From an uncultured Gemmatimonadota bacterium (GTDB taxonomy: Bacteria; JAAXHH01), in NCBI GenBank assembly GCA_951812955.1, contig OX638340.1:1472001-1536000 (forward strand): a DNA stretch of 64,000 bases, given 5' to 3'. The first letter of the stretch is position 1, and each line of letters opens with the position of its first letter. The notes beneath the pieces were generated by a model, which made no database searches, had not been told where the DNA came from, and saw only the letters and a program-made list of their open reading frames with translations. This document shows positions 2,044 to 24,639 of this stretch, piece after piece. The position numbers were made by a program, and so were the translations under genes.

Positions 2044-2526
2044 ATGATGGCTACACAGGAAATTGAAAGTGCCAATCATATCATAAGCAAAATCGACGAG
2101 TTTCCTGATTACTTTTTAAGACAATACAGTAATGTTCAAAATGAAGCGTTACTTTCAAAAAAACTTGAATACACCGTTCGGTCGTTTAACAAGAGACTGG
2201 AAATCGCATATGAGATCTCTCATGATTTTATAGAATTCTTAAAGCAAGATGGAATAATCGATCCAGAGCAGCCGTTAGTCGGGTGTGTGCAAGAGTACGA
2301 AAAGGTTTGCTCTGAACTCTATCTATATTTCAACCAAATCCCCTCAGACTCTTTTCATTTCCCGCATATCGTTGAAAGATTAACAAAAATACTAAAAGAC
2401 TATGCTGGTAAATTCCAGGATTTACGCTGGGAGGTTATGATCCATAACGGGCTTCTTGCACCTCGGCATACAAATACATTTTCAGGTGGAGATGAGTTTG
2501 AGCAAATTTTAAAACAACGAAATTAA
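2044..2526 (+). CDS. hypothetical 160-aa protein; putative antitoxin or partner of the downstream RelE/ParE-like toxin
   Basis: AT-rich ORF with no motif I recognise. Its TAA stop at 2524-2526 is 1 nt from the ATG of the next gene (TAACATG), a tightly coupled bicistron. Confidence 0.55.
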   Translation: MMATQEIESANHIISKIDEFPDYFLRQYSNVQNEALLSKKLEYTVRSFNKRLEIAYEISHDFIEFLKQDGIIDPEQPLVGCVQEYEKVCSELYLYFNQIPSDSFHFPHIVERLTKILKDYAGKFQDLRWEVMIHNGLLAPRHTNTFSGGDEFEQILKQRN

Positions 2527-2527
2527 C

Positions 2528-2830
2528 ATGAATTACCCCTTCGACGTTCCATCCGAATTCGTAGAACCAGATGATTCCTTCCTTGAGCAACACCAAAAAC
2601 TTCCCTCGTCTTTAAAACAAAATTTCCAAAGATTGTTAGATCAATTCAGAAATCACCGTTTAACACCCGGTCGCAGATTAAAAAAAATCGGTCCTAATCT
2701 GTTCTCGGTAAGATTAAACAGAAAATACCGTTTCGTATATGAATTGCTTTATATAGATGGAAAAGCTGTTGGAAGGCCTCTGGCCGTAGGAAACCATGAT
2801 GAAACATACGACTCGGCAAGTCGGGTTTAA
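2528..2830 (+). CDS. RelE/ParE-family type II toxin (mRNA interferase fold)
   Basis: The C-terminal half LKKIGPNLFSVRLNRKYRFVYELLYIDGKAVGRPLAVGNHDETY matches the RelE/ParE consensus (...LkG.l.g.ysiRig.dYRiiY.v.d..v.vlrIghRkdvY). The gene has AT-rich island composition. Confidence 0.7.
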   Translation: MNYPFDVPSEFVEPDDSFLEQHQKLPSSLKQNFQRLLDQFRNHRLTPGRRLKKIGPNLFSVRLNRKYRFVYELLYIDGKAVGRPLAVGNHDETYDSASRV

Positions 2831-10465: not shown

Positions 10466-11182
10466 TTAGGCCCGGCCAGTAAGAATAGCCAGGACTTCCT
10501 GTGCCACTTCGTCGACGGCGTAGGTGAACATGTCCACCTTGTTGACGAAGTAATTATACGCTACGATACCCATGATGGCCGCGGCCAGCCCGCCCGCCGT
10601 GTTGATCAGCGCTTCCGATATACCCAGAGCAAGCTGAATTGCGTCCGGCGCACCTTCATTAGCCATGGCGGCAAAGGCGCGGATCATACCGATCGTCGTA
10701 CCGAGCAGCCCCACCAGCGTGGCGATTGTGGCAATGGTCTGCAACGCGATCAGGTTACGTTCGAGCAACGGCGTCTCGAGGGCGTTGGCTTCTTCAAAAG
10801 CCCGCTTGATCTCCTGCACCTGTCTGTCGCTCGTCAGGTTCTCGTCGGCAATGGTCTGGAACCGCTCGAGACCGGCGCGAAGCACGTTGGCCATGGTACC
10901 CTGTTGCGAGTTGCACAGGTTGACCGCGCGGGTGACGTCGTTGTTGCGGATCGCGCCCATGGCGTCTTTGAGAAACTCCACCTGCGACCGCTTGCCGCGC
11001 GCTTTTTTCAGCGTCAGCGAACGCTCTATGATGAAAGTGATGTCAAGCATGGTGAGCACCATGAGACCGATGACCACGGGTCCGCCGTCCTTTACGAACT
11101 GTGGCAGAAAGTACTCGAAAATGATCCATGAAACAATAAAGCAAAGGACGATGATGATCATGATAAAGGCGCCTGGCCGCAT
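10466..11182 (-). CDS. exbB: MotA/TolQ/ExbB proton channel
   Basis: 238 aa with three TM helices and TIGMIRAFAAMA / LINTAGGLAAAI motifs. Confidence 0.85.
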   Translation of the reverse strand: MRPGAFIMIIIVLCFIVSWIIFEYFLPQFVKDGGPVVIGLMVLTMLDITFIIERSLTLKKARGKRSQVEFLKDAMGAIRNNDVTRAVNLCNSQQGTMANVLRAGLERFQTIADENLTSDRQVQEIKRAFEEANALETPLLERNLIALQTIATIATLVGLLGTTIGMIRAFAAMANEGAPDAIQLALGISEALINTAGGLAAAIMGIVAYNYFVNKVDMFTYAVDEVAQEVLAILTGRA

Positions 11183-11458
11183 ATCAAATTCTCCTTAAAC
11201 TTTGTTGCGTTACGAATAGTGAATTAAAAACCAAGACAATCATCTCACCGTGATATAATCCCTGCCGGACAAACCCGGTACTGCTCATCCTGAAAGTGTC
11301 CTGTTCGAGTCGGCGGGACAAACGCCTTCCTTCACCACCACCTTTCCATCCGTGTCCTGTGTGTCGCCTGTAAACAGGCCTGGATCATGTAATTTGCAAT
11401 CCGGAACTTCCCCGCCGTTCACGCGTGCCGGACCTGCCCGCGGACGAACGATCGTTCC

Positions 11459-13477
11459 TCAGCCTCCCTGCAGCTGTTCGTAGATCTCGCGCACGTTGTT
11501 CAACTGCTCCCGCGCCGTGCCGTTATTGGGGTCCAGCCGCAGGCATTCCCGGTAATGGCGGATCGCCGGCGCAAGCTGTTGCGAATTCGTATAGGCCTGG
11601 GCGAGAAGAAGATGATAGGACGATTCGTCCGGTTTCAGTTCAACGGCTTTCCGCAGGCGGCCGATAGCGCCGGCGTAATCCTTGTTCAACACCCGGTCGA
11701 AACCCAGGCGGTAGTATGCCTCGTGGTCCGTAGGATCGATCTCCAGCACCCGGCGGAACGTCGTGCGCGCGTTGGCGAAATCCTCCAGGATGAGGTAGGC
11801 CGTTCCCAGGTATTTCAACGGTTGGAGAATGGTCGTCGGATCCGTCTCGCCTTCTTCGGCCCGCAGGTTCAGGGACTGGAGGAGCGCGTCCCGGGCCACC
11901 GTGCCGTCGTTGGCCACCAATCCCGTGATGCCCATGTTCAGATAGGCGGAATAGTTCGTGCTGTCATGGGCGACCTTGGCACGGTACATATCCAGCGAAG
12001 CGGCAAAGATCGCCTGCCGCTGGTCTCTCTCCACCTCGCGGGATTCGACGTAAAGCTCCCTGCCGAGGTTGTAGTATACGTTACTCAGTGTGATCCTTTC
12101 GCGCTCGTCCGCCGCCGCCTGCAACGCCGGTTCCAGCACGGCTTTTACGGCCGATACGGCCTGCGCGTACTGGCCCTGCTTGATGAACGAACGTCCGTAG
12201 TACGCGTAAGGATTCTGGTCGGTGGGATTGACCCTGATGGCCTCTTCAAGATACGGAATGGCATCGGCGAACTTTTCCTGGTCGAATAAGACAAGCGCCA
12301 GTTGGATGTAGGGCTTCTCTGACGTCCCGTCCAATTCTATGGATTTCTTCAGATTGTCGATGCCTTCGTCGTACTGGCCCACTTCCGGTTGCGTCTGTAC
12401 CCAGCCCAGGCTGAAATGCAGCGCCGCGTTGCCCTCGTTCTGCATCAGGGCTTCCCTGTAGGCGTTGACCGCATCCATGTACCGGCCTTCGGCGACCAAC
12501 CCGTCGCCCATCGGCAGATAGGCCTTGACCTTGCCCGGGTCCAGTTCGACGGTCTTCATGTAGTGGGGTACGGCCATCTTTATCCGCTGGGTCTTGTTGA
12601 ACGACTCGGCCAGCATGAAATAGGCTTCGGCGTTGGTCTGGTCCAGTGCCACGTATTGTTCGATCGGCTCGACGACGAGGGGATAGCGCTCTGCGACGAA
12701 CTGGATATAGCCCTGCTGGTACCAGGCGTCCTTCAGGGTGGGATCGAGTTCGGTCGCTTTACGGAACCCGTCGTAGGACTCGTTCCACTGCCGCGCCTTG
12801 AAATGCAACTGGCCGATCCGGTAGTAGATCATGGCGGCGTCGGGGGAATCGGGCTCCATGGCGAGGGCCTGACGGTAGTTGGTGATCGCCAGCCCCCACA
12901 CGTTCTGGGCCTCGTAGACGTCACCGAGCCCGCGCACGTAAAGCGAGTTCTGCGGATCAATGCTCTGCGCGCGGGTGAAGAGTACCATGGCGCTCTGGAG
13001 ATCTTCCCGGGCGATGGCGAGCTGGCCGTCGGCGTAGAAAAATCTCGCGTCTTTCTCCTTGGTGCGCTTGAGCCCCTCCCTGATCGACTTCTCCGCTTCC
13101 TCGAACTGCCCCTTCCTGATCTCCTGCAAGCTCAATTCGAAGCGGGCGTCGTGATTCTTCTTCTGCTGGTCGACGGCGATCAGAAATTCGGAATGCGCTT
13201 CGTCGAGGCGTCCCTGCCGTTTGAGCGCCATACCGAGCAGGTAATGGGCTTCGTGGTTCTTCTTTCCGTTGCTGAGCACGTCCCGGAGTATGGTAACGGC
13301 TTCGTCGTAATTCCCGCCGTCGTAGGCTGCCTGGGCGGCGTCCACACTCTGCGCGTTCACGGCCGCCGGCGCGCCGGCCAGACCGACTAGCAGCAGCAAG
13401 CCAAGTACGAGCGAGGCACCCCGGTCTTTCCTGCGGTTCTCACCTGCGATCCACATGTTCGATTCCTCCCGATGCAC
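11459..13477 (-). CDS. secreted tetratricopeptide (TPR) repeat protein
   Basis: Signal peptide LVLGLLLLVGLAGAPAAVNAQ, then multiple TPR units with the W-LG-Y-A-P pattern. A likely start is the MWIAG methionine at 13456. Confidence 0.8.
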   Translation of the reverse strand: MHREESNMWIAGENRRKDRGASLVLGLLLLVGLAGAPAAVNAQSVDAAQAAYDGGNYDEAVTILRDVLSNGKKNHEAHYLLGMALKRQGRLDEAHSEFLIAVDQQKKNHDARFELSLQEIRKGQFEEAEKSIREGLKRTKEKDARFFYADGQLAIAREDLQSAMVLFTRAQSIDPQNSLYVRGLGDVYEAQNVWGLAITNYRQALAMEPDSPDAAMIYYRIGQLHFKARQWNESYDGFRKATELDPTLKDAWYQQGYIQFVAERYPLVVEPIEQYVALDQTNAEAYFMLAESFNKTQRIKMAVPHYMKTVELDPGKVKAYLPMGDGLVAEGRYMDAVNAYREALMQNEGNAALHFSLGWVQTQPEVGQYDEGIDNLKKSIELDGTSEKPYIQLALVLFDQEKFADAIPYLEEAIRVNPTDQNPYAYYGRSFIKQGQYAQAVSAVKAVLEPALQAAADERERITLSNVYYNLGRELYVESREVERDQRQAIFAASLDMYRAKVAHDSTNYSAYLNMGITGLVANDGTVARDALLQSLNLRAEEGETDPTTILQPLKYLGTAYLILEDFANARTTFRRVLEIDPTDHEAYYRLGFDRVLNKDYAGAIGRLRKAVELKPDESSYHLLLAQAYTNSQQLAPAIRHYRECLRLDPNNGTAREQLNNVREIYEQLQGG

Positions 13478-21583: not shown

Positions 21584-21629
21584 GGTTCCGCGCAGGGAGA
21601 ATGGAACAGCATTTTAATACTGGTTTTTA

Positions 21630-21665
21630 TTGACTGTTGACGTATATTAAGATGCATATAAGTAT
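21630..21665 (+). promoter_or_regulatory. AT-rich promoter-like region (overlapping TTGACT/TTGACG -35 boxes and TATATT/TATAAG -10 boxes)
   Basis: Seen in the sequence upstream of the 21779 small ORF. The exact boxes are ambiguous. Confidence 0.3.
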
Positions 21666-21778
21666 TTTAACAGATGTCGGCTCGCGCGGAGTGCAGGCGA
21701 ACGCAGCGGACCGGACCTCTTCCACGGGCGATATTTCAAACAGAATGTCCCCCGTTGTCCTGGTATTAAGGTTAAAAG

Positions 21779-21964
21779 ATGAAAGATAGAACTTCTGATT
21801 TCGATCCGGAAAAAGGTATTCCGGAGACCGAGGAAGAAGAAATAGACTACGACGCCCGGAATACGAAAGAACTATTGAAAAGCGGTTTTATTTCCAAAGC
21901 CGTATATGATGAAATACAAGTACAACTGATAAGGCGTAGGGAGGCGCTGAGCCGAGAGAAGTAG
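21779..21964 (+). CDS. small acidic protein with a SHOCT-like C-terminus
   Basis: ELLKSGFISKAVYDEIQVQLIRRR resembles the SHOCT motif. The gene has AT-rich composition. Confidence 0.35.
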   Translation: MKDRTSDFDPEKGIPETEEEEIDYDARNTKELLKSGFISKAVYDEIQVQLIRRREALSREK

Positions 21965-22049
21965 GACCTGGTTCGAGGAATCGTGATCGAATTCGGAGGT
22001 TCGCTGCCGATAGGGGTAGCGCTTTCGGTCCTGCACGCCACGCTGGTCT

Positions 22050-22556
22050 TCAGTGCCCGTTCCGTTCCAATGTTCCTGCCTTGACCTCAACCTTTCCGAT
22101 CTCGTTTCCGAAGTACTGAATCATCCTCAGGGCTGCGTCCACCTCGTCCGACTGCACGAACTCCCATTGGTCTGATTCCTCGATGCCGCGCTCCGCCTCG
22201 ATGCCGCGCTCCGCAAGGAGATTGCGGAATCGATCCGCCACCGCCCGCCCCCTGCTGCTCAAATCATACATCCAGAGATCGGGATCGGCGGGATCCATGC
22301 TGCTCCGCACCATGTGACCGCGTTCCAGTCCGCACATCGCGGATTTCGTGCTCGAATGCGCACAGTCCAGGTGCCTGGAAATGGCGCTCATGGGTAGCGC
22401 GCCTAATCGCTCAAGTGCAAACAGGGCCCGGATCCGGAGGATCGTCTCATCCCGGCGCTCCAGTTCGTCTTCGCGGTGGGACAGGAACCGGAAGGCCAGA
22501 CGCTCCACCACTCCCAAAAAACGGCGTTCCAGTTCACTTCTGTGCCAATCGGACAT
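22050..22556 (-). CDS. MarR-like winged-helix transcriptional regulator (divergent)
   Basis: ALPMSAISRHLDCAHSSTKSAMCGLERGHMVRSSMDPADPD ... LSSRGRAVADRF follows the MarR wHTH pattern. It contains an 18-bp in-frame duplication (ERGIEAERGIEE). Confidence 0.55.
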   Translation of the reverse strand: MSDWHRSELERRFLGVVERLAFRFLSHREDELERRDETILRIRALFALERLGALPMSAISRHLDCAHSSTKSAMCGLERGHMVRSSMDPADPDLWMYDLSSRGRAVADRFRNLLAERGIEAERGIEESDQWEFVQSDEVDAALRMIQYFGNEIGKVEVKAGTLERNGH

Positions 22557-22632
22557 GTGTCCACCTGTTCATGTAGATGAAATCTGTATCCGGTCGATGG
22601 ACTCGAAATCCGGTACGGGTATGACAGGCAGG

Positions 22633-22815
22633 TTATCTGCCGATTGTCCCATTGCCGATTCGCCGCTCTATCTTTTCCACTGCGTGCAGCAGTTCGCGAA
22701 CAAAAGTCCTCAAGTCTTTCATCTCGCGTTCAATCTTGAGTACGTGTGCCAGGATCGCCTCCTGGTTCTTCTCCAGCACGCGCATGTATTCGTACTTTTT
22801 CATCTGCTGTTCCAC
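22633..22815 (-). CDS. hypothetical small coiled-coil protein upstream of the MarR-like gene
   Basis: 60-aa ORF starting at GTG (an internal ATG gives 56 aa) with a GAGGA ribosome-binding site. Support is weak. Confidence 0.3.
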   Translation of the reverse strand: MEQQMKKYEYMRVLEKNQEAILAHVLKIEREMKDLRTFVRELLHAVEKIERRIGNGTIGR

Positions 22816-22930
22816 GCCTTGGTCCTCGCTTCCAGTTTGATGAGAAATACCGACTGCTTACAGTCACATCGGCATCATTTGCCTGATTACAGTTCTGCGC
22901 AGTAAACGTGCGTGGCGCCGGTGTCTGCCT

Positions 22931-22970
22931 ATAACAAAAAGCCCCGGTATCACCCAGGGGCCCGGGGCTT
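22931..22970 (-). terminator. Rho-independent terminator (AAGCCCCGG ... CCGGGGCTT stem plus a TTTTTGTTAT tract on the minus strand)
   Basis: A perfect 9-bp stem seen in the sequence. No annotated minus-strand gene ends within 440 bp, so it is an orphan. Confidence 0.5.
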
Positions 22971-23331
22971 GATGCTACCTGACCTGCATATGCACGGCCG
23001 TCGTCCGATGCTTACGTCGTCCGATGCTTAATGGTGGCAGGCTGCACGCCGCCTATAGTGGCCGTGTTTCCTGCTTGAAGCGGACGAGAATTCGTTCCAA
23101 GGTGCCTGGAACCGATGAGCTAGGCGGCTTCGTTTACATCGCATGGCTCCCATGAACGTTACCCAGCTCGATCGGATTGTTTGACAACTGCACAAATTGC
23201 ACACACGCTAAGTGGTAGATATACGTTTATGACAACAATATCAAGAACAAGTATAGTAATGTCAATAGTAAATTACGTTATAACTGTTATTTCGTTAAAT
23301 AGTAGTTTAATTTAAGGAGAGTAATAAAACA

Positions 23332-23370
23332 ATGAAATACTCTGATTTGCGATTCTACAGGCTTTACTAG
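23332..23370 (+). CDS. 12-codon mini-ORF (MKYSDLRFYRLY) with a strong Shine-Dalgarno; possible leader peptide or small peptide gene
   Basis: AAGGAGAG lies 10 nt upstream of the ATG and the context is AT-rich. Status is speculative. Confidence 0.2.
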   Translation: MKYSDLRFYRLY

Positions 23371-23407
23371 CTTCAAAAACAAGGAATGGTGATACTCTAG
23401 TGACCAT

Positions 23408-23668
23408 TTAATCCATTTTAAGATAATATTGTTTATATATAACTTTTCTTTTTATACGTCGTTCTAACCTGACCAATCTCCAAATCCGGTATGGTTTTCC
23501 TTTTTCGAATGCACAGGTTTCAATAACCCGTACTGCCCTATACTGCTTGACATTGGCATCGTTTACGGCGTAGTTTATTCCGGAATTTGTTGCGAATGGA
23601 AATTGCTGGTCGGGGGCAGTCAAGAAACGAAATACAGGATGGGAATTGGCGACCGAAATGGTAAACAA
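23408..23668 (-). CDS. hypothetical 86-aa protein with a basic C-terminus
   Basis: ORF in the AT-rich island. I recognise no motif. Confidence 0.3.
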   Translation of the reverse strand: MFTISVANSHPVFRFLTAPDQQFPFATNSGINYAVNDANVKQYRAVRVIETCAFEKGKPYRIWRLVRLERRIKRKVIYKQYYLKMD

Positions 23669-23747
23669 CGCCTCGATCAGGGAATCAATAAACGGAGGAT
23701 AGCATCCCCGGATTCCTTCGTATCACCGGCCTGTTTAACTTAGGTGA

Positions 23748-24263
23748 GTGATCGTGCAGGTAAACAACCTGAGAGATCTTTCAGATCGCTTCGTGACCGT
23801 AGTGAGACAGTTGTGCCGTTTGACATACATCGCAAGACTGAATGAGTGGCAGGGGCTGGACATGACCGTGCCTCAGATCAAGACGTTGATTCTGATCGAG
23901 CACTTGGGGCCGCTCAGGATGGGCGCGATAGCCAGTTACCTGGGCAGCGGCCTTTCCACTACGACCACGATAGTGGATCGCCTGGTGAAAAAGCAGCTGG
24001 TTCAACGGGATTCGGATCCGAACGATCGAAGAGTCGTGATATGCGAACTGACTTCCAAGGGTCGGGATGCGACCGAGTTGTTCTGGGATCACCTGAAGAC
24101 GAAAGCGCTGATGCTTTCCGATCAGTGGGAAGTGGATCAATTCGAAAAGGTCGTCCAGGCGCTTGAACTGATCTGGGGTACCGAGGAAGCGCTTCAATCG
24201 GCATCTGATTCCGCTCCGCCCATCGTCAGCCAATCTCCCGGCGCCAAGTCATCCGCGCTTTAA
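23748..24263 (+). CDS. MarR-family transcriptional regulator
   Basis: LDMTVPQIKTLILIEHLGPLRMGAIASYLGSGLSTTTTIVDRLVKKQLVQRDSDPNDRRVVICELTSKGRD is a canonical MarR wHTH. GTG start. Confidence 0.85.
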   Translation: MIVQVNNLRDLSDRFVTVVRQLCRLTYIARLNEWQGLDMTVPQIKTLILIEHLGPLRMGAIASYLGSGLSTTTTIVDRLVKKQLVQRDSDPNDRRVVICELTSKGRDATELFWDHLKTKALMLSDQWEVDQFEKVVQALELIWGTEEALQSASDSAPPIVSQSPGAKSSAL

Positions 24264-24343: not shown

Positions 24344-24393
24344 TGTGGTGGAAAAAGCCGCGAGTGCTTACTACACTGACCGTATAGCGGTAC

Positions 24394-24466
24394 GGGGAAT
24401 CGAACCCCGGTTTGATGGCTGAGAACCACCCGTCCTAACCACTAGACGATACCGCCGCGTTGCTCT
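24394..24466 (-). tRNA. tRNA-Glu (anticodon CUC)
   Basis: Manual cloverleaf fold. Acceptor stem GGCGGTA/TACCGCT with a G1-U72 pair, D-stem GTCT/GGAC, anticodon stem GGTGG/CCATC, anticodon loop TTCTCAG, T-arm CGGGG-TTCGATT-CCCCG. CCA is not encoded. Confidence 0.8.
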
Positions 24467-24569
24467 TGACGAAAATACCCCATTTACCGGCCATAGTCAA
24501 GTATCCGGGCCGGCTTTTATATCGCTTCGAAGACGTAAAATCCTCTACGGGCATGGCAAGAATGTGAAC

Positions 24570-24639
24570 TGGGGGGCAGGGATTCGAACCCCGATTCCAT
24601 GGTCCAGAGCCATGTGTCCTACCCTTGAACGACCCCCCA
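24570..24639 (-). tRNA. tRNA-Gln (anticodon CUG)
   Basis: U1-A72 first pair and G73 discriminator, as is typical of bacterial tRNA-Gln. Anticodon stem CATGG/CCATG, loop CTCTGGA, T-loop TTCGAAT. The ends are +/-2 nt. Confidence 0.75.

What the first reader, a model, noticed from the sequence alone, without database searches (positions are those of the whole stretch)
21590..23750. Second AT-rich island next to the tRNA-Glu/tRNA-Gln genes, with two MarR regulators and several small ORFs
- A 2.2-kb low-GC stretch sits between a GC-rich dehydrogenase gene and a MarR gene.
- A tRNA operon lies about 650 bp beyond its right edge; tRNA genes are classic integration sites, although no integrase is present.
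- The island encodes a divergent MarR-like regulator, a 60-aa coiled-coil ORF upstream of it, and a SHOCT-like 61-aa acidic ORF with its own AT-rich promoter.
- It also holds an 86-aa basic ORF, two short tandem duplications (18 bp and 17 bp), and a TGCACA-N4-TGCACA direct repeat.
- The composition and density of orphan small genes suggest a degraded mobile island or a regulatory/stress cassette with uncharacterised members.
Basis: partly seen in the sequence, partly recalled or inferred. Interest (0 to 1): 0.6.

Follow-up and report, generated by a model that had tools for sequence, protein, structure and literature searches.

The report
Lineage-specific MarR regulatory locus, not island
The AT-rich stretch beside the tRNA-Glu/tRNA-Gln genes is a vertically inherited regulatory locus of an uncultured bacterial lineage, holding a MarR repressor, its fast-evolving copy, two tiny conserved proteins and the leftover ends of a lost gene, and not a recently acquired mobile island.

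Summary
The compositional anomaly is real. Window 21590-23750 has 49.7% GC against 61.0 ± 3.4%, the lowest of all same-size windows. It is patchy, coming mainly from a 316-bp spacer (23231-23546, 31% GC) and from the SHOCT-like gene.

Related genomes settle the origin. Outgroups have the dehydrogenase stop about 60 bp from tRNA-Glu. One clade gained the MarR gene plus a divergent unit. One subclade also carries the SHOCT-like and second MarR-like genes. The pattern follows the flank-gene tree. No integrase, tRNA-derived repeat, or phage or plasmid similarity was found.

- **Real genes:** MarR169 (true start 23754), cc56 (one long helix, dN/dS 0.08), wHTH168 and SHOCT61.
- **wHTH168:** a divergent local paralog of MarR169 that has lost the wing arginines and is truncated in sister strains.
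- **Not coding:** the 86-aa "basic ORF" overlaps the MarR promoter and has dN/dS of 1.6-2.4.
- **New element:** a conserved minus-strand promoter, a leader carrying the invariant TGTGCA-N3-TGTGCA repeat, and an intrinsic terminator upstream of cc56. In relatives a collagen-repeat lipoprotein gene sits between leader and terminator, so the window holds its fused remnants.

My inferred model is that MarR169 controls the divergent leader-cc56-wHTH168 unit. Interest is modest.

The parts
21584..21778 (+). Promoter region and about 100-nt 5'UTR of the SHOCT-like gene (AT-rich, TTGAC -35-like boxes at about 21633-21644).
   Evidence: The upstream TTTTTATTGAC box and the 5'UTR block are conserved in L084, L002, L003 and L090. 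GC is 0.47. Promoter assignment is an inference.
21779..21964 (+). SHOCT61: a 61-aa acidic protein with a C-terminal SHOCT-like motif.
   Evidence: Pfam SHOCT_2 gives E 0.014 and 16 bits, below the 24-bit cutoff. Five of 7 homologues hit the same model. There are 22 invariant columns. dN/dS is 0.10-0.57 in three of four comparisons, and 1.05 vs L084 on only five substitutions. GC3 of 0.44 is an outlier. It occurs only in clade b.
22050..22556 (-). wHTH168: a divergent MarR-family paralog of the neighbouring MarR. It contains a strain-specific in-frame 18-bp duplication (22178-22213, ERGIEA).
   Evidence: No Pfam hit. Its family profile reaches genuine MarR proteins at E 6e-13 and below, and the nearest of these are MarR169 orthologues. 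It is 31% identical to MarR169. The predicted helix/strand order matches MarR at low pLDDT. dN/dS is about 0.37. Homologues are 162 aa and lack the duplication. It is truncated in L002 and L086-89 and reduced to a remnant in L092-94.
22633..22803 (-). cc56: a 56-aa basic single-helix (heptad-repeat) protein. The mechanical ORF extends to GTG 22815, but homologues start at the ATG at 22803.
   Evidence: There are 12 clusters with 27 invariant columns. dN/dS is 0.08 against L003 and L009. AlphaFold2 gives one helix with pLDDT 91. No family hit in Pfam, NCBIfam, PADLOC, PHROGs or PDB.
22932..22975 (-). Intrinsic terminator AAGCCCCGG...CCGGGGCUUUUUGUU upstream of cc56.
   Evidence: Found in the terminator scan and the fold. 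Conserved in clade a and clade b relatives.
22932..23230 (-). Non-coding leader/relic RNA of about 300 nt. The 5' domain (about 23135-23230) and the pre-terminator are conserved. The middle (23016-23150) is homologous to the 3'UTR of a collagen-repeat lipoprotein gene present in L008 and L043. It includes a 16-bp tandem duplication (22999-23030).
   Evidence: Supported by alignments A3, A4, the run_python MAFFT alignment of the MarR-cc56 intergenic region and A8. There is no consistent reading frame, and orf58 dN/dS is about 1. No Rfam family matches. The L008 gene lies between leader and terminator. L042 keeps the full 5'UTR without the ORF.
23189..23203 (-). Direct repeat TGTGCA-ATT-TGTGCA about 30 nt into the leader. 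Candidate operator or RNA motif.
   Evidence: Unique in the window. Exact in 12 clade-b loci. Shows 1-2 substitutions in clade a.
23237..23265 (-). Sigma-70-type promoter TTGACA-17-GATATT driving the leader.
   Evidence: Found in the promoter scan. The -35 and -10 are conserved across clades a and b, and an 11-nt duplication in L002 preserves an intact copy.
23231..23546 (.). AT-rich spacer (31% GC) between the two divergent promoters. It evolves fast in sequence but is AT-rich in every relative that has the MarR gene.
   Evidence: (77-79% identity to L002).
23408..23668 (-). The 'basic 86-aa ORF': a spurious open frame antisense to the MarR promoter and 5'UTR.
   Evidence: dN/dS is 1.6-2.4, like an out-of-frame control. 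L002 has 1-nt and 2-nt indels within it. The conserved block 23484-23584 is the MarR promoter.
23547..23753 (+). MarR169 promoter (TTGACA 23547-23552, TAGTTT 23571-23576) and 5'UTR, which carries an insertion of about 105 nt specific to clade b.
   Evidence: The block ATAYTGCTTGACA...GCGTAG is invariant in 10 loci. The palindrome TGCTT-N5-AAGCA over the -35 is present in relatives and degenerate in the window.
23754..24263 (+). MarR169: a canonical MarR-family regulator.
   Evidence: Pfam MarR 3.3e-15 at 56 bits against a 24.6-bit cutoff. dN/dS is 0.13-0.28. The start codon is fixed by alignment, with ATG at the same position in L004.
24385..24639 (-). tRNA-Glu(CTC) and tRNA-Gln(CTG) operon. 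The 3' end of tRNA-Glu faces the locus.
   Evidence: ARAGORN and Rfam. Conserved in all syntenic relatives.

Best explanation
The segment is a chromosomal regulatory locus specific to one lineage. It grew stepwise in the gap between the 2-hydroxyacid dehydrogenase gene and tRNA-Glu, in uncultured bacteria whose records are labelled Latescibacterota or Gemmatimonadetes.

**Core of the locus**
- A MarR-family repressor gene (MarR169) is transcribed to the right.
- A divergent unit is transcribed to the left from a conserved sigma-70-type promoter.
- That unit has a roughly 300-nt untranslated leader beginning with an invariant TGTGCA-N3-TGTGCA repeat.
- An intrinsic terminator follows, then cc56 (a 56-aa coiled-coil-type helix), then wHTH168.
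- wHTH168 is a fast-evolving duplicate of MarR169 that has lost the wing arginines.
- A small SHOCT-like gene converges from the left.

**Origin of the leader**
The leader is what remains of a transcription unit that ancestrally carried a collagen-repeat lipoprotein gene between its 5'UTR and its terminator. The coding part has been deleted in this lineage.

**Source of the low GC**
The low GC is caused by the 316-bp AT-rich spacer between the two promoters and by short genes and untranslated regions. It is not caused by recently imported DNA.

**Proposed mechanism (inferred, not shown)**
- MarR169 binds in the divergent promoter region.
- It represses both its own gene and the leader-cc56-wHTH168 unit until a ligand or stress signal releases it.
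- The terminator in front of cc56 limits read-through.
For: **Shown**
- Empty sites exist: the dehydrogenase stop is 59-86 bp from tRNA-Glu in L005, L017, L032, L046 and L053.
- Distribution is nested and clade-wise on a tree of the flanking PIG-L and dehydrogenase proteins. MarR occurs in one clade, and SHOCT61 plus wHTH168 in one subclade. cc56 or its remnants occur throughout the MarR clade.
- Purifying selection acts on cc56, MarR169, wHTH168 and SHOCT61, but not on basic86 or orf58.
- The wHTH168 profile finds MarR169 orthologues as its nearest outside relatives among 1.84 billion representatives.
- GC3 of wHTH168, cc56 and MarR169 lies within about 1 SD of the genome background.
- Both promoters are conserved across clades.
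- The terminator is conserved.
- In L008 and L043 a collagen-repeat lipoprotein ORF lies between leader and terminator.
- L042 retains that gene's 5'UTR fused to the pre-terminator, and there the leader runs directly into cc56.
- There is no att repeat, no integrase among the ORFs, and no phage or plasmid match.

**Inferred**
Repression by MarR169, the operator identity and read-through into cc56 are inferred. They rest on the standard divergent MarR arrangement and on the absence of a recognisable promoter between terminator and cc56.
Against: - There are no expression or binding data.
- The conserved leader motif is a direct repeat, whereas MarR dimers usually bind palindromes.
- The palindrome over the MarR169 -35 seen in relatives is degenerate in the window.
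- cc56 might have its own unrecognised promoter in the conserved 117 nt after the terminator.
- SHOCT61 has clearly atypical GC3 (0.44), so that one gene could have been imported.
- wHTH168 is truncated or lost in several sister strains, so part of the cassette may be decaying and not functioning.
- The direction of change for the collagen-repeat gene (ancestral and lost, or inserted) is argued from parsimony on few genomes.
Confidence: 0.6

Rival explanations
1. Degraded integrative island. The segment entered at the 3' end of tRNA-Glu by site-specific recombination and has since lost its integrase and att sites.
For: - Presence/absence polymorphism lies exactly between the dehydrogenase stop and the tRNA-Glu 3' end.
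- Relatives carry different cargo at the same spot, and further small-gene inserts lie between MarR and tRNA-Glu in clade a.
- The segment has the lowest GC and high tetranucleotide deviation in the window.
- SHOCT61 has GC3 of 0.44.
Against: - There is no integrase and no repeat of the tRNA 3' end.
- There is no phage or plasmid similarity.
- Distribution is nested and tracks the flank-gene tree.
- The locus genes have diverged alongside the flanks.
- Three of the four genes have native-like GC3.
- wHTH168 arose by local duplication of MarR169.
Confidence: 0.12
2. The 170-305-nt promoter-to-terminator unit is a free-standing trans-acting small RNA, encoded divergently from its transcription factor as in oxyR/oxyS or gcvA/gcvB. 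The invariant 5' motif would be its seed.
For: - Promoter and terminator are conserved, with no consistent reading frame.
- The unit is retained after independent deletions of the internal ORF.
- The 5' segment is conserved at the primary-sequence level.
Against: - In L008 and L043 the same ends flank a protein-coding gene, so they behave as untranslated regions.
- In L042 the terminator is destroyed and the leader is fused to cc56.
- There is no conserved secondary structure apart from the terminator and no convincing covariation.
- The middle part evolves at roughly the synonymous rate.
- No Rfam family matches.
Confidence: 0.15
3. Decaying leftovers. Apart from MarR169, the cassette is non-functional debris drifting towards loss, and the low GC reflects relaxed selection plus AT-biased mutation.
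For: - wHTH168 is truncated in L002 and L086-89 and reduced to 40 codons in L092-94.
- cc56 is reduced to C-terminal remnants in L004, L006, L007, L008 and L041.
- The leader is a gene relic.
- wHTH168 and SHOCT61 have relatively high dN/dS, and wHTH168 has lost the wing arginines.
- Strain-specific tandem duplications are present.
Against: - cc56 dN/dS is 0.08 at dS of about 1, and the gene is intact in all clade-b genomes.
- The promoter, the 15-nt motif and the terminator are conserved well above the neighbouring spacer.
- SHOCT61 keeps its length and 22 invariant residues.
Confidence: 0.1

Closest known systems
Divergently transcribed, autoregulated MarR-family loci (e.g. marRAB, ohrR-ohrA, slyA-type arrangements; from general knowledge of the family)
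   Same: - A MarR-family gene with a Pfam-significant winged helix lies back to back with a second transcription unit.
- Conserved sequence blocks overlap the promoters.
- A palindrome lies over the regulator's own -35 in relatives.
   Different: - The regulated unit encodes no efflux pump or enzyme. It encodes a 56-aa helix and a degenerate MarR paralog behind a long leader with a terminator.
- The promoters are about 280 bp apart, separated by 31% GC DNA.
- The best conserved motif is a direct repeat inside the transcribed leader.
- No ligand or target is known.
tRNA-linked genomic islands or islets
   Same: - The position is immediately 3' of a tRNA gene.
- There is presence/absence variation among relatives.
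- Composition is deviant.
- Small orphan genes are present.
   Different: - There is no integrase, no att repeats and no mobile-element genes.
- Inheritance follows the host phylogeny.
- One gene arose by local duplication.
SHOCT domain proteins (Eberhardt et al. 2013, PMC3581485)
   Same: - A short C-terminal helical motif gives weak matches to Pfam SHOCT_2 in 5 of 7 homologues.
- The function of the domain is itself unknown. The paper proposes oligomerisation or nucleic-acid binding, and its own experiments do not support oligomerisation.
   Different: - The score is below Pfam's threshold.
- This is a stand-alone 61-aa protein with an acidic N-terminus, not a C-terminal appendage of a larger protein.
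Transcription factor / divergent small-RNA pairs (oxyR-oxyS, gcvA-gcvB; general knowledge)
   Same: A regulator gene lies divergent from a short promoter-to-terminator non-coding unit with a conserved 5' sequence.
   Different: - The unit is demonstrably the fused untranslated ends of a lost gene.
- It sits directly upstream of cc56.
- No conserved structure was found.

Membership tests
MarR family (for MarR169, 23754-24263) | Winged helix-turn-helix matching Pfam PF01047 above the gathering score | tested here: met
   56.2 bits against a 24.6-bit cutoff, E 3.3e-15. MarR_2 also passes.
MarR family (for MarR169, 23754-24263) | Binds a (pseudo)palindromic operator in its own or the divergent promoter region | not testable with these tools
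   Only a lead is available. TGCTT-N5-AAGCA overlaps the -35 in relatives and is degenerate (TGCTT-N5-TGGCA) in the window.
MarR family (for wHTH168, 22050-22556) | Match to Pfam MarR models | tested here: not met
   No Pfam or NCBIfam family at E <= 0.1 and E <= 1 respectively.
MarR family (for wHTH168, 22050-22556) | Full-length sequence homology to proven MarR-family proteins | tested here: met
   - The family profile hits proteins that themselves pass Pfam MarR (E 6e-13 to 1e-3, near full length).
- It is 31% identical to MarR169, pairwise E 1e-17.
- PDB hits are mixed between DtxR and MarR at E of about 1e-3.
MarR family (for wHTH168, 22050-22556) | Six-helix, two-strand topology (a1-a2-a3-a4-wing-a5-a6) | tested here: inconclusive
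   The AlphaFold2 model has that order of elements, but mean pLDDT is 49. The top 43 Foldseek hits are winged-helix regulators, nearly all annotated MarR-family, but E >= 0.02 and TM is below 0.3.
MarR family (for wHTH168, 22050-22556) | Conserved basic residues at the base of the wing (D-x-R-R/K motif) used for DNA contact | tested here: not met
   MarR169 has DPNDRRVV where wHTH168 has DPADPDLW. No arginine occurs there in any of 12 homologues.
SHOCT domain | Match to Pfam SHOCT or SHOCT_2 above the gathering score | tested here: not met
   Score is 16 bits against a 24-bit cutoff (E 0.014). Five of 7 homologues give similar sub-threshold hits. This supports resemblance, not membership.
tRNA-integrated genomic island | Integrase or recombinase gene in or beside the segment | tested here: not met
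   All ORFs of at least 40 aa between the dehydrogenase gene and the tRNAs were listed. None is an integrase, and the flanks are syntenic core genes.
tRNA-integrated genomic island | Direct repeat of the tRNA 3' end at the far border (attL/attR) | tested here: not met
   No copy of the last 20 nt of tRNA-Glu with up to 3 mismatches anywhere in the window. No such repeat found with 8-nt seeds.
tRNA-integrated genomic island | Patchy distribution incongruent with host phylogeny, or presence on mobile elements | tested here: not met
   Distribution is clade-wise and nested. No phage or plasmid hits.
Known structured RNA family or riboswitch (for 22932-23230) | Rfam covariance-model match, or conserved secondary structure with covariation | tested here: not met
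   Rfam gives nothing beyond terminator-like noise at E <= 10. RNAalifold finds only the terminator and weak stems.

The most novel reading that the evidence does not exclude
cc56 is an extremely conserved 56-aa heptad-repeat helix with no relatives outside this lineage. Together with the degenerate MarR paralog wHTH168 and the SHOCT-like protein, it may form a previously undescribed small-protein regulatory module.
- One possible role is a coiled-coil modulator or anti-repressor acting on MarR169 through the DNA-binding-impaired paralog.
- Expression would run from a MarR-controlled leader-plus-attenuator 'slot'.
- In sister genomes that same slot drives a collagen-repeat surface lipoprotein, possibly host-interaction related.
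Probability: 0.15. Interest if true: 0.5.

Novelty: new member of a known kind. Interest (0 to 1): 0.27.

Why it matters
- **A warning about composition-based island calls.** In GC-rich genomes, an AT-rich patch next to a tRNA can be a native, vertically inherited regulatory region. Here it combines a divergent promoter spacer, short genes and relic untranslated regions. ORFs in such patches can be artefacts.
- **Leads in an uncultured lineage.** The locus offers a few tractable items:
  - a strongly constrained orphan micro-protein (cc56);
  - a MarR duplicate caught at different stages of divergence and decay;
  - a promoter-leader-terminator unit that has been kept through repeated loss of its original cargo gene.
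- **Limits.** None of this challenges current understanding, and the functions remain unproven.

Tried and rejected
- **Known RNA family in 22880-23300.** Rfam at permissive E-values gave only terminator-like noise.
- **Structured RNA or riboswitch.** RNAalifold was run on 5 and 12 sequences. It found no conserved structure in the 5' domain, and only three and two compensatory pairs elsewhere in the two full-length alignments.
- **Hidden small ORF in the leader.** One frame looked conserved in clade b (VQFVQ..NNPI), but it is closed by stop codons in all clade-a genomes and lacks a ribosome-binding site.
- **Metagenome scan for more copies of the leader core.** It returned one close relative (L084) and two chance hits.
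- **DtxR/IdeR-type metalloregulator reading of wHTH168.** PDB hits at E of about 4e-4 align the second domain, but the metal ligands are not conserved: M10, H98 and H106 are replaced, by my reading of the alignment. The profile's nearest relatives are MarR proteins.
- **Defence-system or phage-protein assignment.** PADLOC and PHROGs gave nothing significant for the small proteins.
- **cc56 against PDB profiles.** Only generic coiled-coil noise appeared.
- **att-site search.** Negative.
- **Exact-sequence look-up of cc56.** Not on record.
- **A dN/dS artefact.** One value, for the PIG-L fragment, was computed in the wrong frame. It is ignored except as an out-of-frame control.


Full report
**Observation**

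The window averages 61% GC. The interval 21590-23750 has 49.7% GC. That is the lowest of 619 overlapping windows of the same length (mean 0.610, sd 0.034), and its tetranucleotide composition is among the most deviant.

The deficit is not uniform:
- The second regulator gene is 60% GC with GC3 0.72.
- The spacer 23231-23546 is 31% GC.
- The SHOCT-like gene is 43% GC with GC3 0.44.

Most listed features exist:
- tRNA-Glu(CTC) lies at 24385-24456 and tRNA-Gln(CTG) at 24569-24639, both on the minus strand.
- There is a Pfam-significant MarR gene.
- There is a second 168-aa ORF on the minus strand with a 60-aa ORF upstream of it.
- There is a 61-aa acidic ORF with a sub-threshold SHOCT_2 match.
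- There is an 18-bp perfect tandem duplication.

Three details need correcting. The other duplication is 16 bp, not 17. The TGCACA repeat has a 3-nt spacer, not 4. The MarR protein starts at GTG 23754, not 23748.

**Where it comes from**

A scan of one genome per species with the neighbouring dehydrogenase returned 80 loci. About 25 of them share the synteny PIG-L/CBM9 protein, dehydrogenase, tRNA-Glu, tRNA-Gln, dGTPase-like HD protein and sulfatase. Their records are labelled Latescibacterota, Gemmatimonadetes or simply 'bacterium'. Several isolate names suggest marine sponge metagenomes, but that is my inference and is not verified.

The gap between the dehydrogenase gene and tRNA-Glu varies among these genomes:
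- In L005, L017, L032, L046 and L053 the dehydrogenase stop is 59-86 bp from the 3' end of tRNA-Glu.
- Five other genomes hold a zinc-type alcohol dehydrogenase gene there.
- L004, L006 and L041 hold the MarR gene but no intact cc60. L042 (and L081, fetched) hold MarR plus cc60. L008 and L043 hold MarR plus other content.
- Only the window, L001, L002, L003 and L009 hold the full set. Further contigs fetched through the small proteins (L084, L086-L091) also hold it. L082 and L092-L094 carry only parts of it.

A neighbour-joining tree of the two flanking proteins shows that these states are nested clades. The outgroups are empty or carry the alcohol dehydrogenase. One clade has MarR. Within it, clade b has SHOCT61 and wHTH168.

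Remnants of the cc60 C-terminus in L004, L006, L007, L008 and L041 show that cc60 was present at the base of the MarR clade and was later lost in places.

Several tests argue against a mobile origin:
- No integrase is present among the ORFs.
- No copy of the tRNA-Glu 3' end occurs elsewhere in the window.
- The 2.8 kb has no similarity to phage or plasmid collections.

However, it is old, vertically inherited and assembled in steps.

**Which ORFs are genes**

I computed Nei-Gojobori estimates against four relatives.

| ORF | dN/dS | Reading |
|---|---|---|
| cc56 | 0.08 (at dS about 1) | Strong purifying selection |
| MarR169 | 0.13-0.28 | Purifying selection |
| wHTH168 | about 0.37 | Moderate constraint |
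| SHOCT61 | 0.10-0.57 | Weak to moderate constraint |
| 86-aa basic ORF | 1.6-2.4 | Same as an out-of-frame control |
| orf58 | about 1 | Not coding |

The SHOCT61 comparison with L084 gave 1.05, but it rests on only five substitutions.

The basic ORF has 1-nt and 2-nt indels in L002. Its only well conserved stretch is the MarR promoter on the other strand.

cc56 has 12 clusters of homologues, all in this lineage, with 27 invariant positions. AlphaFold2 models it as a single helix with pLDDT 91. By my reading of the sequence, hydrophobic residues follow a 3-4 heptad spacing over six heptads. It has no match in any library searched.

**The second regulator**

wHTH168 has no Pfam hit. A profile built from its 12 homologues was searched against 1.84 billion representative proteins. 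After its own family it reaches ordinary MarR proteins over nearly their full length. The best of these is 78% identical to MarR169, and the following hits are also closer to MarR169 than to anything else. The two window proteins are 31% identical. The simplest reading is a local duplication of MarR169 followed by rapid divergence.

Four observations suggest that its function has changed or is decaying:
- The basic D-x-R-R wing motif of MarR169 is replaced by DPADPDLW, and no homologue has an arginine there.
- Homologues carry a variable number of REDELERR-type repeats.
- The window's copy has a strain-specific six-residue duplication, which is the 18-bp repeat.
- The gene is truncated in L002 and L086-89 and reduced to a remnant in L092-94.

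Weak PDB matches to DtxR/IdeR are not backed by conservation of the metal ligands.

**The non-coding centre of the locus**

I aligned the whole MarR-to-cc56 intergenic region from ten genomes, and the 5' part from twelve. Four features emerge:
- The MarR169 promoter TTGACA-18-TAGTTT is nearly invariant in sequence context. A palindrome TGCTT-N5-AAGCA lies over the -35 in relatives.
- An AT-rich spacer cannot be aligned between subclades but is AT-rich everywhere (38-47% GC for the whole intergenic region).
- A minus-strand promoter TTGACA-17-GATATT lies at 23265-23237 and is conserved in both clades.
- A transcribed segment begins with the TGTGCA-N3-TGTGCA repeat and ends in a strong intrinsic terminator at 22975-22932, 117 nt before cc56. 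The repeat is unique in the window, exact in 12 loci and nearly so in clade a.

This segment has no consistent reading frame, no Rfam match and no conserved structure beyond the terminator. Its length ranges from 170 nt in L003 and L090 to 305 nt in the window.

The extra 'middle' of the window (23016-23150) is homologous to sequence in L008 and L043. There it forms the 3'UTR of a collagen-repeat lipoprotein gene, which lies between the same leader and the same terminator. L042 keeps that gene's entire 5'UTR joined directly to the pre-terminator. It has also lost the downstream half of the terminator, so the leader runs straight into cc60.

I therefore read the window's 300 nt as the fused untranslated ends of a lost gene. 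Its promoter, first 95 nt or so and terminator have been kept through several independent deletions. The most likely reason is that they still serve expression of cc56 and wHTH168. The middle part diverges from L002 at about the synonymous rate, which fits a relic.

**Mechanism**

The shown elements are the two conserved divergent promoters, the conserved motifs, the terminator, the gene order and the selective constraints.

The inferred model is as follows:
- MarR169 acts as a typical MarR repressor on this divergent region. It controls itself and the leader-cc56-wHTH168 unit.
- The terminator attenuates read-through.
- cc56 is the conserved effector.
- wHTH168 is a possibly DNA-binding-impaired modulator, or a decaying copy.

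I give the general account 0.6. That account is a native, vertically inherited MarR locus whose AT-richness comes from its promoter spacer and small genes, and not from a mobile island. The specific regulatory wiring deserves considerably less.

The rivals are:
- a degraded integrative island (0.12);
- a free-standing small RNA (0.15);
- largely non-functional debris (0.10).

**Comparison and verdict**

The locus works like the familiar divergent MarR arrangement, and MarR169 is a member of that family. wHTH168 is a homologue that fails two family criteria, the Pfam model and the wing arginines. SHOCT61 only resembles SHOCT. The function of that domain is itself unresolved (PMC3581485). The segment fails every test for a tRNA-integrated island except variable presence.

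This is a new member of a known kind with some orphan components. Interest is modest.

Noticed in passing
window 2044-2830: This is the other ('first') AT-rich island (about 40% GC). It holds two tandem plus-strand ORFs of 160 aa and 100 aa. The 160-aa ORF has no Pfam hit. The 100-aa ORF has a weak, sub-threshold HigB/RelE-like toxin match (E 0.0058). The pair looks like a toxin-antitoxin-type module.
   Followed up: partly
L004 11100-11125; also L006, L007, L008, L041, L042, L043, L081, L082 just downstream of the dehydrogenase stop: Relatives carry clusters of two or three perfect DnaA boxes (TTATCCACA) within about 70 bp, between cc60 or its remnant and the dehydrogenase gene. The window has no such cluster at the equivalent position.
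   Followed up: partly
L008 11619-13148 (and L043 11504-12985), minus strand: A collagen-repeat protein (Pfam Collagen 2.7e-9) with a lipoprotein-type signal peptide is encoded between the conserved leader and the conserved terminator. The ORF has been deleted in the other genomes, leaving different amounts of its untranslated regions.
   Followed up: yes
window 21680-21778 and L003 about 11140-11234: The 5'UTR of the SHOCT-like gene is better conserved (about 80% nt identity) than its coding sequence (56% aa identity). No Rfam match was found, and too few lineages were available to test for structure.
   Followed up: no
window 23577-23753: Clade-b genomes have an insertion of about 105 nt between the MarR169 -10 box and its ribosome-binding site. 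This gives a 5'UTR of about 170 nt, against about 65 nt in clade a.
   Followed up: no
homologues P0007-P0011 of wHTH168: There are one to six tandem copies of a charged REDELERR-type repeat between the first two helices. Copy number differs between close relatives.
   Followed up: no
L006, L008, L041, L042, L043 between the MarR gene and tRNA-Glu: A further 1.1-1.9 kb of variable small ORFs sits directly at the tRNA-Glu 3' end in clade a. It is absent from the window, and the ORFs tested have no Pfam hits. This is the most island-like part of the region in relatives.
   Followed up: partly
L009 about 11250-11480: A tandem array of a 20-nt unit (AGACACGCAACGCATTCAAC), interrupted by a masked run of N, lies upstream of the SHOCT-like gene.
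   Followed up: no
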